Shown here: piece by piece, positions 7,316 to 60,020 of the stretch
Layout: the number at the start of each line of letters is the position of its first letter
How positions within the stretch are numbered: position 1 is the stretch's first letter
Assembly: GCA_964016885.1 (NCBI GenBank)
Contig: OZ024762.1
Span: 11,160,001 to 11,224,000, forward strand
Length of the DNA: 64,000 nt
Reading direction: 5' to 3'
From: Eledone cirrhosa
Taxonomy: Eukaryota
Notes under the pieces: generated by a model
What the model saw: only the letters and a program-made list of their open reading frames with translations
Database searches by the model: none
What the model was told of the DNA's origin: nothing
Program-made: the position numbers and the translations under genes

Positions 7316-8791
7316 ATGTCGGCATTTAAGAGCTTTGTTAACCAATGTACTTCATGTCGATGGAAGTTAGGTTATGCGTGTTGTGTAGCTTTTCTACTGA
7401 TGCAATCATTAAGAGTTGATCTAAGTATGGCCTTTGTTTGCATGTTCAAAACACCCAATCGTACAACTGATGATGAAGTCAATTTGACACGAAACAACGG
7501 ACATTGTTCTGGATCAGAAAACACTACGAAAACCCACGATTTTGAAGGAGAAATCGAATGGAGTGATACCTTACAATCAAATATTTTGGCTGGTTACTTC
7601 TATGGTTATATTGCAACTAATATTTTGGGTGGTGTATTGGCAGACAGATATGGCGGAAAAAGAATTCTAGGAGGTTCTATTCTCTCGGCAGCAATTGTGA
7701 CGTTTCTTTACCCAAGTTTATCTCGAATAAGTGGTTACTTTACGCTTGCCTTAAGGATAATAACAGGTTTGGTATCTGGGCCGATATCACCAGCAATTCA
7801 GTCCCTATGTGGACGCTGGGCCCCTCCACAAGAAATTAGCTCTTTGATTGGGTTTATATTTGCTGGTCAAATTCTAGGTAATATTTTAGGTCTTTCAATA
7901 TCTGGTTACCTTTGTGTGTACGGATTTGACAACGGGTGGGGTTCTATATTTTATGTATTTGGTGGAATATCATTTGTGTTTAGTCTTTTGTGGTTTTATG
8001 TCGTTCATGATACACCAGATCACCATCCTTCTATTAAAGAAAAAGAACGATCTTACTTAAACCGGACAATACTAAGTAAAAAAGCCGTGAAGAAAGTACC
8101 TTGGCGAGAAATACTTACTTCACCTGCAGTTTGGGCCATCAATATCGGATTGTTTTCTTATGGCTGGACGAATATATCTTTCCAGGTATTGCTACCTTTA
8201 TACATGAAAGAAGCCTTAAATGTTAATACAACATCCAACGGAATAATGTCCTCAGCTCCATCAGTTGGACAAATCATTGCTTTGCCGTTGTGTGGGAAAT
8301 TTGCAGACATTTTACGTTCAAAAAAATATTTATCAACTCGTTCAGTGAGAGTTTTATTCCAAACTATTTCTATGATTGGTTCAGCATGTCTATTGATTGG
8401 CATAGGATTTTTCAGATGTGACCATATCGTTCTGATAGGTGTCCTCTTATTTATAAGTGGTATAACACTATCATTTGGCAGTGGTGGTGTCTTAGCTAAT
8501 AACAGTGATATTGCTCCAAGTTATGCAGGTATTATATTTGGAATTGCTAATACATTTGCTTCAGTAGCCGGCTGTGTTAGTTCTTTATCTACAAAAGCTC
8601 TAACACCAAACGGTACACAGGAAGAATGGCAGATCGTGTTGGCAATATGTGCAGCTGTTTGTGTATTTGGTGCAATAATGTTTGCAATATTGGCAAGGGC
8701 AGAAATCCAAGATTGGGCAAGTTCACAGAGATCTCGAGCAGCTATTCACCCTGTTCATTCAACTGAAACAAATATACACCAAATGGTTTAG
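7316..8791 (+). CDS. SLC17A5-like: SLC17/sialin-like MFS transporter, paralog 1 (491 aa, uninterrupted CDS)
   Basis: Motifs [66 protein letters not shown] and EEWQIV, with about 12 hydrophobic segments. In-frame TAA 21 nt upstream of the ATG. Confidence 0.95.
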   Translation: MSAFKSFVNQCTSCRWKLGYACCVAFLLMQSLRVDLSMAFVCMFKTPNRTTDDEVNLTRNNGHCSGSENTTKTHDFEGEIEWSDTLQSNILAGYFYGYIATNILGGVLADRYGGKRILGGSILSAAIVTFLYPSLSRISGYFTLALRIITGLVSGPISPAIQSLCGRWAPPQEISSLIGFIFAGQILGNILGLSISGYLCVYGFDNGWGSIFYVFGGISFVFSLLWFYVVHDTPDHHPSIKEKERSYLNRTILSKKAVKKVPWREILTSPAVWAINIGLFSYGWTNISFQVLLPLYMKEALNVNTTSNGIMSSAPSVGQIIALPLCGKFADILRSKKYLSTRSVRVLFQTISMIGSACLLIGIGFFRCDHIVLIGVLLFISGITLSFGSGGVLANNSDIAPSYAGIIFGIANTFASVAGCVSSLSTKALTPNGTQEEWQIVLAICAAVCVFGAIMFAILARAEIQDWASSQRSRAAIHPVHSTETNIHQMV

Positions 8792-9000
8792 TAATTTCGC
8801 TGAATTTTCACCGTGACATTTTTATCATCCACCAATGCATAAATGTATGTGCATTTTCTCCTCAACATTTATATTAACAATGAAGCTCTGAATAGAATTG
8901 TTCGTCTCTAAATGGAGAAGGTACAGAACATTTAAAAATAAATCTAAATCCATTCAACCGCTTTCGTCGTGTTTTTTCTTTCAACTGTGAATTATAATGA

Positions 9001-9006
9001 AATAAA
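9001..9006 (+). promoter_or_regulatory. Candidate polyadenylation signal for paralog 1
   Basis: AATAAA about 210 nt downstream of the stop codon. Confidence 0.35.
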
Positions 9007-57058: not shown

Positions 57059-58604
57059 TACCTATATATATATATACATATATATATATATATATATATA
57101 TATATATATATATATATATATATATATATATATATATATATATATATATATATATATATATATATGTGTGTGTGTGTGTGTGTGTGTGTGTGTGTGTGTG
57201 TGTGTGTGTGTGTGTGTCTGTGTGTGTGTGTGTATGTATGTATGTATGTATGTATGTATGTATGTATGTATGTATGTATGTATGTATGTATGTATGTATG
57301 TATGTATGGAGAACAGTCAGGAATTGGAGAAAAACACCATGGAAAGCATCCAGCAAATAGCTAACTCCATCCACCAGAGTATTAGAGTTACTATAGACTA
57401 CCCAAGCAAACACCCCAACCATCGATTACCTGTACTAGACACAGAGCTCTGGTTAGAAACTATTAATAACAAAAACAAATCCTCCATTCCCATTATGCCA
57501 AACCCATGACTTCCAAATATCTGATCCACCGAAACTCAGCTGTTTCGGATCACACCAAAATCAACATACTGATTGCGGATTTGGTACGGGTGATGAGAAA
57601 CGAGTCCCGCATGTGCAACCCCAAAGAACTAGAGAGACACATACAACATTTCATCCACCGTATCCAGTTCTCTGGTTACAATCAGAGAGATAAAATCAGA
57701 GTATATAGAGGAGCCAGAACCAAATAGGAAAAAATGGTAAATAATGATACAAATGGGACTTGTCCCTTGTATAGGAGCAAATTTTGGAATAAAATAGAAA
57801 GAACTAGGAATAAAGTTAATAGAATGAACTCATGGTATGATAGCAATAAATACCAGAGTGTAATATTCATCAATACAACCCCTAGAGGTGAATTAGCTTA
57901 CAAATTCAGAAGGACCCTAGATAAACATAAACTTAATATTAAGATAGTAGAAAGAACAGGTACCTCCATAAAAACACTTATTAGCAATACATACCCTCTT
58001 ACAATATGGTGTAAAATTAGATTTATTTCTGACAATGAAATCATTTTCATTTTTATTGAGTAGAAATCAATTGATGCTTCGAATGTCTACTTTAAATTCG
58101 ATGATATTTGTTGTTGGTGAGGGAGAAAAAATTGAAACTCTTAAAAGATATTATTTTTTGTCTGTCTTCAATAAATTTATGATTTCTGTGTCCAACCTTT
58201 CTGTGGTTACGTATGTGTCTGTATATATAATTAAATTTTATCAATAGAGAAAGTAAGAACGAGAGGAGAGAGACTAAAAAAAAGAATCTGAATATTTACC
58301 TGTAATATTTGATTGATATTATATATTTTATTTTTTCCGGGTCAGCTATAATTTATGGATCACCAAATAAAGAAACTTACAGTCGCCATCTGCTGATGAC
58401 AGAATAAACTCTCTTATTTTACCAAATAATCTCAGATAGACAACTAAATTATATACGAGATACACTTCCGGAACATTTCAGTATCCAATGAACATTAGAA
58501 AATATATTATCCAATCAAAATTTGAGAAATAATTTCGAAACCTATCTAACAAAGAGAAGTTCAATCGTGTGTGAGAAACATTGGATATTAAACTGCTATT
58601 AAGA

Positions 58605-60020
58605 ATGTCAAAATTTACCATCTTTATATCACATTATACTTCATGTCGATGGAGATTGGGTTACATGAGTTTTATGGCTTCACTTCTAATGCAGATCTTA
58701 CGTAACGACCTCAGTATGGCCTTGGTTTGTATGTTGAAGCCAACCAATCATTCATCGGGAGAAGTCAACCTTACTGAAAACAACAAACTTTGTTCCAGCT
58801 CGGAGTATGGTCCGTTCAATAAAACATATGAAGGAGAGTTTGAATGGAGTGACACTCTACAATCAAACATGGTGGCTGGGTATTTCTATGGATATACTGC
58901 AACTAATGTTCTTGGTGGTTTATTGGCTGATAAATATGGTGGTAAAATTATTCTAGGTGGTTCCCTTATCTCAGCGTCTATTCTGAGTCTTCTTCATCCA
59001 GTTTTAACCCGAATAAGTGGATATTTTACCCTTGTCTTAAGAATATTAACAGGTTTGGTATCAGGACCGATATTTCCGTCAATCCAGTCTTTATGGGGAC
59101 GGTGGGCTCCACCACAAGAGAGTAGCCTGTTGTGTGGATTGTCTTACTCTGGTCAAATGTTTGGTAGTTTTTTAGGATTGACAATTGGTGGTTTTCTTTG
59201 TGAACATGGATTTGATAATGGATGGGGATCTATATTTTATATATTTGGAGGAACATCGTTGGTATTTAGTTGTTTATGGTTTTATATTGTTTATGATAAT
59301 CCAAATCTTCATCCTTCTATCAACCAAGAAGAACTGATATATATAAAATGTTCCATTACATCTTTGAGTGAGGTAAAAAATATTCCATGGAAAGAAATAC
59401 TGACTTCTTCAGCTGTCTGGGCAGTTCAGATTGCCATGTTTCCTTTCTTCTGGATTGAAACCACAGTCCAACTGTTGCTTCCTCTCTATATGGACGATGT
59501 ATTCAATGTTACACCAACACATAACGGGTTAATATCTTCAGCTCCATCCTTAGCTCAAGTCATTGCAATACCATTGTGGGCTAGATTAGCAGACTTTTTA
59601 TTTTCCGAGAATTATCTGTCTAAACGTTCAGTTCGAGTAATTTTTGAGACTGTGTGTGGCATTGGATCTGCACCTTCACTTCTTGTGATTGGATTTCTAA
59701 ACTGTAACCAAACAACTCTGACTACTGTCATGTTGTTTGCGTCCGGTGTAATTTGGTCAAGTTTCGTTGGCGGGGCTCTTGTCAACATTGTAGACATTGC
59801 TCCAAATTATTCTGGGACCATATATGGTATTGTTAATACATTTGGATCTATTGCTGGATTTTTATCTCCTTTAGTTGCTAAATTTCTCACAGCTAACGGA
59901 AGCCGATCTGAATGGCAAACCTACTTCTCATTGTCTGTTCTCATAGCCATACTTGGTTCAATATTTTATGCAATATTTGCAAAAGGTGAGGTACAAAAAT
60001 GGGCACAACCACAAAACTGA
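58605..60020 (+). CDS. SLC17A5-like: SLC17/sialin-like paralog 7, identical protein to paralog 6
   Basis: Identical translation; lies within the 2,962-bp duplication. Confidence 0.85.

What the first reader, a model, noticed from the sequence alone, without database searches (positions are those of the whole stretch)
7400..59480. Rewired charge network: TM4 glutamates lost, new acidic residues in TM1 and TM7
Seen: TM4 reads RI(I/L)TGL(V/L/C)(S/C)(G/A)P in all paralogs. Human sialin, as I recall it, reads RALEGLGEGV, with E171/E175 implicated in proton coupling (the latter equivalent to VGLUT2 E191). The H183 position is Q, Y or H. TM1 keeps the substrate Arg but reads R(V/I/N)DLS rather than RVNLS/RCNL. 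In TM7 the WTFY motif becomes WTNI, WIEF, WTDL, WTNS, WTDL or WIET, placing D/E in the pocket in most paralogs. Inference: these are unlikely to be ordinary H+/sialic acid symporters. Options include a relocated proton site, uncoupled or channel-like transport, zwitterionic or cationic substrates, or a sensor role.
Basis: partly seen in the sequence, partly recalled or inferred. Interest (0 to 1): 0.78.

Follow-up and report, generated by a model that had tools for sequence, protein, structure and literature searches.

The report
Octopus sialin-like transporters with remodelled pockets
These are tandem copies of the sialin-like transporters known to be expanded in octopuses: the missing proton-coupling glutamates are common in invertebrate relatives, but a new acid in the substrate pocket and altered gate residues are nearly confined to the octopus copies and likely make them proton-independent carriers of amino-acid-like molecules rather than sialic acid exporters.

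Summary
The motifs are as reported. The window holds an array of single-ORF SLC17 genes: 6 intact copies (two identical), 1 frameshifted, 3 fragments. They belong to the known octopod 'sialin' expansion.

The three changes differ in age. (1) TM4 glutamate loss is ordinary: 187 of 349 non-cephalopod homolog domains lack both, and the array nests in a glutamate-less clade. (2) TM1 Asp (sialin N59) is shared with the single-copy octopus/cuttlefish paralog and 18 of 349 others. It faces the TM4 Arg in the proton tunnel, not the pocket, and does not track glutamate loss (p=0.14). (3) TM7 Asp/Glu (F305) is distinctive: 23 of 40 array members versus 4 of 349 others. It sits where VGLUT2 F326 binds the substrate amine.

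Pairwise dN/dS of 0.23-0.53 indicates functional genes.

Best reading, inferred and untested: proton-independent carriers of zwitterionic amino-acid-like solutes with diversified specificity. A channel or sensor role is not excluded.

The parts
7316..8791 (+). g1, intact single-ORF SLC17 gene, 491 aa (P0001); D at N59 site 7418-7420, T/S at E171/E175 sites 7763-7765 and 7775-7777, N at F305 site 8171-8173
12505..13980 (-). g2, intact, 491 aa (P0122); D59 13876-13878, E at F305 site 13123-13125, Y at H183 site
23497..24951 (-). g3, intact, 484 aa (P0123); D59 24847-24849, C at E175 site, D at F305 site 24094-24096
38505..39973 (+). g4, frameshifted copy (break in a T run at about 39625-39640; N-terminal ORF P0124, C-terminal part in another frame); D59 38601-38603, N at F305 site 39351-39353
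   Evidence: contigs of three runs of one sample span 39137-39945 with 0 differences and 0 gaps
42573..44048 (+). g5, intact, 491 aa (P0125), recent sister of g1 (94.9% DNA identity over 2.2 kb); D59 42675-42677, D at F305 site 43428-43430, H183 kept
49551..49964 (-). 3'-end fragment of a g6-like copy with in-frame stops
52283..52438 (+). short C-terminal fragment (last helix)
55643..57058 (+). g6a, intact, 471 aa (P0126); D59 55745-55747, E at F305 site 56495-56497, His at T153 tunnel site
58605..60020 (+). g6b, coding sequence identical to g6a, in a 2962-bp tandem unit (recent duplication or assembly artefact); E at F305 site 59457-59459
60737..60925 (+). C-terminal fragment next to a LINE reverse-transcriptase remnant

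Best explanation
This is a tandem array of single-ORF SLC17 genes of the octopod 'sialin' expansion, whose products are likely proton-independent facilitative carriers (uniport or exchange) of small zwitterionic, amino-acid-like solutes, predicted to differ in substrate from paralog to paralog. Shown: 12-helix MFS fold closest to sialin; both TM4 glutamates absent, a state shared with the surrounding invertebrate clade; TM1 Arg and Tyr119 (the carboxylate site) kept; Asp/Glu at the TM7 position in most copies; conserved pocket and gate residues (Y54, Y306, L309, Y335, R195, K197) replaced; no dileucine motif; purifying selection. Inferred: Arg57/Tyr119 would bind the substrate's carboxylate or sulfonate and Asp/Glu305 its amine. 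Asp59 would act as a fixed counter-ion to the TM4 Arg, doing the structural job of E171 (sialin) or D46 (DgoT) without shuttling protons. The proteins would work at the plasma membrane. Copies with Asn305 (g1, g4) would keep an anion-type pocket.
For: Amine site: in VGLUT2-ACPD the substrate amine is 3.3 A from F326 (cation-pi), and one carboxyl is held by R88, Y135 and Y327 (bioRxiv 2022.07.26.501550 sec. 5). F326 aligns to the array's D/E site and R88 to the kept Arg; Y135 corresponds to sialin Y119, also kept. D/E305 is in 23 of 40 array domains versus 4 of 349 non-cephalopod domains. D59 plus D/E305 together: 19 of 40 versus 0 of 349. Net charge of seven pocket sites is 0 in 23 of 35 array members versus +1 in 93 of 107 glutamate-bearing homologs. 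The TM10 Arg seen in 18 of 29 other molluscan homologs is absent. No proton coupling: E171Q or E175Q each cost sialin about 95% of transport (PMC9858498), and 0 of 40 array members have either. Asp59: N59 lines the luminal tunnel with R168, and DgoT R126 contacts N49 (PMC11649914; equating N49 with N59 follows from D46=L56 and R47=R57). Gates: 8 of 21 conserved, named sialin sites are lost in the array versus 23 of 178 unnamed (Fisher p=0.007). Localisation: dileucine motif in 0 of 39 array N-tails versus 45 of 104 glutamate-bearing homologs. Functional and diversifying: pairwise dN/dS 0.23-0.53; pocket sites change 1.46 times as often as other helix sites in the array versus 1.02 in other molluscs (permutation p=0.028).
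Against: No transport data, no expression data and no side-chain distances: the AlphaFold model gave fold and helices only. Asp59 or Asp/Glu305 could itself be titrated, so proton coupling is not excluded. The sialin double glutamate mutant kept residual activity in a second study (reduction 'over 60%'). A neutral pocket is not unique: 45 of 186 glutamate-less non-cephalopod domains also score 0. 17 of 40 array members lack D/E305. With the stricter 10-residue pocket list the rate excess is not significant (ratio 1.30, p=0.17), and no pair has whole-gene dN/dS above 1. The named-site list was drawn up after some losses had been seen. VGLUT2 R213S (the K197 site) had no effect on transport. Y306A, L309A and Y335A each reduce sialin transport, so these replacements could mean poor transport rather than new transport.
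Confidence: 0.4

Rival explanations
1. Relocated proton site: Asp59 (with His153 where present) replaces the TM4 glutamates as the titratable residue, and the proteins remain H+-coupled or H+-activated transporters of new substrates.
For: D59 lies in the lumen-accessible tunnel beside R168, one helical turn from the DgoT D46 position. It is kept in 35 of 40 array members. His at the tunnel site 153 is in 24 of 40 array members and all 7 D59 single-copy domains, and is not among the nine commonest residues at that site in the 349 others.
Against: D59 is not tied to glutamate loss: 5 of 18 outside cases keep a TM4 acid (p=0.14), and 174 glutamate-less domains have no D59. Five array members have Asn59. 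His153 is absent from g1-g5. A salt bridge with R168 would lower the Asp pKa (inference).
Confidence: 0.2
2. Membrane-potential-driven organic-anion carriers, like other glutamate-less SLC17s; the TM7 acid only tunes affinity or binds a co-ion.
For: R57, Y119, R168 and N430 are kept. Both domains of a rodent protein (P0222) also lack the two glutamates; that these are NPT-type anion exporters is recalled, not from a call. Sialin itself moves glutamate and NAAG at pH 7.5, and a cation density was modelled in its pocket.
Against: A carboxylate at the F305 site neutralises the only pocket Arg and would disfavour pure anions. The carboxylate-binding Tyr (Y306/Y327) is absent in 39 of 39 array members.
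Confidence: 0.2
3. Channel-like pores or non-transporting sensors (transceptors): with both gates remodelled, the copies leak ions or solutes, or signal ligand binding, as a diversified chemosensory family.
For: Luminal gate residues Y306, L309 (to Gln in 33 of 40) and Y335 and cytosolic gate residues R195 and K197 are replaced array-wide but kept in the single-copy paralog (6 of 6). The tandem single-ORF array has variable pockets. VGLUTs carry an uncoupled Cl- conductance.
Against: S61, F116, R39, E194, E262 and D350 are kept. D371 (D350 site), not R213, is what mattered in VGLUT2. Cytosolic tails are short. There are no expression data pointing to sensory tissue.
Confidence: 0.12
4. Relaxed selection: redundant copies drift, and the pocket changes have no shared functional meaning.
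For: One frameshifted copy and three fragments among ten loci. dN/dS is near 0.5 among recent copies. The array stem branch is long (0.46-0.48).
Against: dN/dS is 0.23-0.33 for deeper pairs. New states are fixed across Octopus, Argonauta and this species (T171 39 of 40, Q54 38 of 40, Q309 33 of 40).
Confidence: 0.05
5. Ordinary H+/sialic-acid symporters, as the database names imply.
For: The best solved-structure matches are sialin (38% identity, TM-score up to 0.83). Sialic acids are reported in cephalopods.
Against: E171 and E175 are absent. The sialic-acid contacts H298, Y301 and S411 are variable or lost. The array is outside the glutamate-bearing groups, which molluscs keep separately (e.g. 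Biomphalaria P0244). There is no dileucine motif.
Confidence: 0.03

Closest known systems
Octopod 'sialin' expansion (Octopus bimaculoides; Albertin et al. 2015 as cited in PMC6110919 and PMC6062618)
   Same: The best hits are O. bimaculoides, O. sinensis, O. vulgaris and Argonauta 'sialin-like / slc-17.2-like' proteins at 55-73% identity, most of a species' copies on one contig. They form one clade with the window genes (40 of 40, support 1.0).
   Different: The window is from an octopod whose g1 protein is not in the collection, and g1/g2/g3/g5 are its own sub-expansion. The passages seen name the expansion but give no residue-level or functional analysis.
Human sialin, SLC17A5 (8DWI, 8U3D-H, 9AYB)
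   Same: MFS 12-helix fold; R57, S61, F116, Y119, R168, N430 and the R39/E194/E262/D350 network.
   Different: No E171 or E175; N59 to D, F305 to D/E/N, Y54 to Q, Y306, L309 and Y335 replaced; R195 and K197 mostly or wholly lost; no N-terminal dileucine motif.
VGLUT2, SLC17A6 (7T3N, 7T3O, 8SBE)
   Same: Lacks the E171-equivalent (Q187); the R88/Y135 carboxylate site is kept; F326 marks the amine-binding position.
   Different: No E191, no R322, no Y327; an acid or Asn replaces F326.
E. coli DgoT (6E9N, 6E9O)
   Same: An acidic residue in TM1 near the TM4 arginine.
   Different: DgoT's acid is D46 (L56 site, before the Arg), whereas the array's is at the N49/N59 site; the E133 equivalent is absent.
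Glutamate-less invertebrate SLC17 clade (molluscs, annelids, nemerteans, brachiopods; database names 'sialin-like', 'slc-17.2-like')
   Same: The array nests inside it; both TM4 acids are absent in 107 of 109 non-cephalopod members; Asn305 is common.
   Different: Those proteins mostly keep Y54, Y306, L309, Y335, R195 and K197 and often carry a TM10 Arg; D/E305 is rare. No substrate for the clade turned up in the searches made.

Membership tests
SLC17 / anion:cation symporter family (MFS) | MFS_1 domain and 12-helix fold closest to sialin and VGLUT | tested here: met
   Pfam MFS_1 E 1e-41 to 1e-57 for 5 of 5 intact proteins tested; model pLDDT 87, best fold matches sialin then VGLUT2 then DgoT
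SLC17 / anion:cation symporter family (MFS) | TM1 substrate Arg and TM4 Arg | tested here: met
   R57 39 of 40 (1 Lys), R168 40 of 40
SLC17 / anion:cation symporter family (MFS) | Cytosolic network R39-E194-E262 and motif-A Asp350 | tested here: met
   R39 33 of 35 filled, E194 37 of 40, E262 40 of 40, D350 37 of 38 filled (E262 mapped to g1 E244 from the alignment)
SLC17 / anion:cation symporter family (MFS) | Transports organic anions | not testable with these tools
   needs a transport assay
Sialin (SLC17A5 orthologs) | E171 and E175 in TM4 | tested here: not met
   0 of 40
Sialin (SLC17A5 orthologs) | Groups with glutamate-bearing sialins in the tree | tested here: not met
   nested in a glutamate-less clade
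Sialin (SLC17A5 orthologs) | N-terminal dileucine lysosomal signal | tested here: not met
   0 of 39, median N-tail 14 residues; an unseen upstream coding exon is not excluded for the window genes
Sialin (SLC17A5 orthologs) | H+-coupled Neu5Ac transport | not testable with these tools
   needs an assay
VGLUT (SLC17A6-8) | R322 in TM7 and E191 in TM4 | tested here: not met
   R322 site is mostly Tyr (27 of 40), never Arg, one Lys; E191 site is Ser, Leu or Cys
DgoT-type bacterial H+ symporters | D46 and E133 proton sites | tested here: not met
   L56 site is Leu or Met in 40 of 40; no E175
Octopod SLC17 array ('sialin' expansion) | Monophyly with Octopus and Argonauta array proteins; tandem copies | tested here: met
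Octopod SLC17 array ('sialin' expansion) | Retrogene origin from an intron-bearing parent | not tested
   window genes are single ORFs, but the intron structure of the paralogs was not examined; descent from the octopod single-copy gene alone is rejected (AU p=0.007)

The most novel reading that the evidence does not exclude
Octopods turned an anion-transporter scaffold into a tandem family of ligand-sensing channels or transceptors: both alternating-access gates opened up, and a variable amine/carboxylate pocket tuned to different small molecules. This would be a second case, beside the receptor-derived chemotactile array (recalled), of octopus chemosensation built from a repurposed gene cluster.
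Probability: 0.1. Interest if true: 0.88.

Novelty: new variant of a known kind. Interest (0 to 1): 0.48.

Why it matters
Reviews list the 'sialins' among the few gene families expanded in the octopus genome, and my searches found no functional account of them. This analysis says the name misleads. The array comes from a glutamate-less invertebrate branch and carries residue changes that point to amine-bearing substrates and altered gating. That turns an open label into a concrete test (zwitterion screen; D305N, D59N and gate-reversion mutants). A zwitterion carrier or a sensor would extend what the SLC17 scaffold is known to do. [quoted passage not shown]

Tried and rejected
1. 'Glutamate loss is an octopus innovation': rejected.
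2. 'D59 compensates for glutamate loss as a rule': not supported (Fisher p=0.14 and 0.32).
3. 'The g4 frameshift is a homopolymer assembly error': not supported. Contigs of three runs reproduce the stretch exactly, but they are one sample and may be the assembled one.
4. 'The array is a recent copy of the octopod single-copy gene': rejected under the model (AU p=0.007; group named after a first tree). Array plus the Gly59 clade was not rejected (p=0.21); the test of array plus all single-copy genes did not finish.
5. Positive selection: not shown. There is no codon-site model, and the 10-site pocket list is not significant.
6. K197 loss as evidence of pH independence: dropped, since VGLUT2 R213S is neutral.
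7. Expression: no RNA holder listed.
8. No genome is held for the window.
9. Albertin 2015 is not held. The supplements of PMC2824716 were unreadable. One short supplement of PMC9068888 had no mention.
10. No NPT or VNUT chain was among the solved-structure matches.
11. Three look-ups in earlier scan findings returned nothing.
12. States at internal tree nodes were not inferred, so the order of changes is read only from which tips carry them.
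Full report
WHAT IS IN THE WINDOW. The 64 kb is AT-rich, microsatellite-rich animal DNA. It holds six intact single-ORF genes for SLC17-type MFS transporters: g1 7316-8791+, g2 12505-13980-, g3 23497-24951-, g5 42573-44048+, g6a 55643-57058+ and g6b 58605-60020+. There is also one frameshifted copy (g4 38505-39973+) and three C-terminal fragments. 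g6a and g6b have identical coding sequence inside a 2962-bp tandem unit. The g4 break lies in a T run; contigs from three runs of one sample cover 39137-39945 with no difference or gap, so it is probably real in that animal. The nearest database proteins are Octopus and Argonauta 'sialin-like' proteins at up to 73% identity, so the source is inferred to be an octopod. No genome is held. The AlphaFold model of g1 (pLDDT 87) matches sialin, then VGLUT2, then DgoT.

THE OBSERVATION. All motifs are as described. The alignment to human sialin and rat VGLUT2 fixes the numbering: R57=R33, N59=D35, R168=R147, E171=T150, E175=S154, H183=Q162, F305=N286 (g1). D/E at the F305 site is in g2, g3, g5 and g6; g1 and g4 have Asn.

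HOW UNUSUAL EACH CHANGE IS. I pooled 466 proteins from three homolog searches, a cluster look-up and one profile search of 50%-identity representatives and aligned them to one profile. This gave 536 domains, of which 416 had sites 59, 171, 175 and 305 filled; 120 were dropped. The groups were 40 octopod-array domains (including six window proteins and three unnamed records), 27 other cephalopod-clade domains (20 are unnamed records placed there by tree and cluster membership only) and 349 others. The sample leans toward relatives of the queries and its members are not independent.

(a) TM4. 187 of 349 others lack both acids and 109 have both. Glutamate-less examples include bivalves, gastropods, a chiton, annelids, a nemertean, a nematode, amphioxus and both domains of a rodent protein (P0222; its identity as NPT-type is recalled). 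In the 410-row tree the array is one clade (40 of 40, support 1.0), joins the other cephalopod-clade genes (49 rows, 1.0), and nests in a 158-row clade (0.984) where 107 of 109 non-cephalopod members lack both acids. Molluscs keep glutamate-bearing sialins as separate genes (e.g. Biomphalaria P0244). The loss is therefore shared with the clade and not an octopus event.

(b) TM1 Asp. It is in 35 of 40 array members. It is also in the single-copy paralog of O. sinensis, O. vulgaris, O. bimaculoides, Argonauta and Sepia pharaonis, which in the octopods lies on a different contig from the array, and in 18 of 349 others. Five of those 18 keep a TM4 acid; the association with glutamate loss is not significant (p=0.14).

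(c) TM7 Asp/Glu. It is in 23 of 40 array members, 0 of 27 other cephalopod-clade domains and 4 of 349 others. D59 with D/E305 is in 19 of 40 versus 0 of 349. Acids at neighbouring TM7 sites do occur elsewhere (37 domains at 302 alone, 16 at 301), so an acidic TM7 is not unique; this position nearly is.

In sialin, N59 lines the lumen-accessible N-domain tunnel with T153 and R168, ending at E171, while F305 is listed in the central pocket with Y54, R57, Y119, H298, Y301, N302, Y306, S411 and N430. E171Q and E175Q each lose about 95% of transport (PMC9858498, passages). A second study found a reduction of over 60% for the double mutant, an R168-E171 salt bridge in the lumen-open state, a luminal lock of F116/Y306, Y335/L309/S61, and a cytosolic seal of R195, S196 and K197 (PMC11116495, passages, part 2 of the text, sections 10 and 11). 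In DgoT, R126 pairs with charged D46 and moves to N49 after protonation (PMC11649914, passages). In VGLUT2 the substrate amine stacks on F326, R88/Y135/Y327 hold one carboxyl, and F326, Y327 and L330 close the lumen side (bioRxiv 2022.07.26.501550, passages and sections 5 and 9). So D59 is a likely partner for the TM4 Arg, and D/E305 a likely amine-binding group.

Of 199 sites conserved in at least 70% of non-cephalopod domains, 31 are lost in the array. These include 8 of 21 sites named in the two sialin papers versus 23 of 178 unnamed (p=0.007; list partly post hoc). Six of them are kept in 6 of 6 single-copy paralog domains but replaced in the array: Y54 (0 of 40), Y306 (0 of 39), L309 (Gln in 33 of 40), Y335 (0 of 38), R195 (5 of 40 basic) and K197 (0 of 40 basic). 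The small Gly59 clade also lacks Y54, Y306 and L309, and the tree does not reject its being the array's sister (p=0.21). The luminal half of TM7 is the most rebuilt stretch. N-tails are about 14 residues with no dileucine motif (0 of 39 versus 45 of 104 in glutamate-bearing homologs); the single-copy paralog also lacks one (0 of 5), so this is not array-specific.

SELECTION. Nei-Gojobori dN/dS among six window sequences is 0.23-0.53 for all 15 pairs, and non-synonymous divergence at 15 pocket codons is 1.3-3.8 times that of other helix codons. Parsimony change counts give a pocket/other ratio of 1.46 in the array (33 rows, p=0.033), 1.02 in other molluscs (29 rows) and 0.77 in non-array cephalopod-clade genes (9 rows); the shift has permutation p=0.028. 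With the 10-site list the ratio is 1.30 (p=0.17). This fits functional genes with loosened or diversifying pockets; positive selection is not shown.

MECHANISM. Most likely (0.4): proton-independent carriers of zwitterionic amino-acid-like solutes, with Arg57/Tyr119 for the acid group, Asp/Glu305 for the amine, and Asp59 as a structural counter-ion. Candidate substrates such as taurine, beta-alanine, betaine, D-aspartate or octopine come from my general knowledge of cephalopod metabolites, not from a call. Rivals: relocated proton site at Asp59, with His153 in some (0.2); voltage-driven anion carrier (0.2); channel or sensor (0.12); drift (0.05); true sialin (0.03).

WHAT IS KNOWN. The expansion of sialins in O. 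bimaculoides is named in two reviews citing Albertin et al. 2015 (PMC6110919 and PMC6062618, one passage each). The original paper was not held, and its supplement, which I could not see, may discuss these genes and bears on novelty. Lineage-specific SLC17 expansions in amphioxus, fly and worm are described in PMC2824716 (passages; supplements unreadable). I also saw the abstract and section 9 of bioRxiv 10.64898/2026.05.20.726482 and passages of PMC10225777. Ten searches of the open library listed no paper analysing residues, expression or substrates of the octopod array; most subscription papers are outside that library.

VERDICT. Its headline half (glutamate loss) is ordinary; the TM7 acid and the gate remodelling are real specialisations of a known but unexplained expansion. 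New variant of a known kind; interest 0.48.

Noticed in passing
window 54160-60143: 2962-bp tandem duplication containing g6, identical except four bases in the boundary microsatellite; a very recent duplication or a false duplication in the assembly.
   Followed up: partly
window 7246-7315, 42503-42572 (+) and 24952-25021 (-): The 70 bases upstream of the ATG are identical in g1, g5 and g3 although their coding dS is 0.12-0.27, and similarity runs 400-760 bases upstream; a conserved promoter or UTR, or gene conversion.
   Followed up: no
window 39039-39059 region of g4 (TM5): g4 reads FSDQTFG where the other copies have Gly before the Gln, a further acid in TM5; it may be pseudogene decay.
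   Followed up: no
proteins P0041, P0043, P0049, P0127, P0128, P0150 (single-copy coleoid paralog): Carries a conserved Asp59 + His153 pair in the N-domain tunnel with intact gates; a cleaner candidate for a relocated proton sensor than the array.
   Followed up: partly
bivalve, gastropod, chiton, annelid and nemertean homologs (e.g. P0054, P0056, P0060, P0167): Many glutamate-less members have an Arg in TM10 at the sialin S407 site (50 of 349), possibly a second anion site different from VGLUT R322; no substrate found in the searches made.
   Followed up: no
proteins P0405 (Haliotis) and P0346 (Blattella): TM7 reads WIET or WIE with Glu at the F305 site, like g6 and g2; P0405 falls outside the cephalopod clade, so probably convergent.
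   Followed up: partly
window 26289-26762 (+) and 59966-60763 (-): LINE-type reverse-transcriptase remnants (Pfam RVT_1). Further transposon-like ORF remnants at 51499-52329, 54766-55101, 57728-58063 and 62715-63050; three of these were scanned and had no Pfam match.
   Followed up: no
proteins P0044, P0045, P0047 (unnamed, Gly59 clade): A third cephalopod-clade paralog group that shares loss of Y54, Y306 and L309 with the array; it could be the array's non-expanded counterpart (AU p=0.21, not shown).
   Followed up: partly
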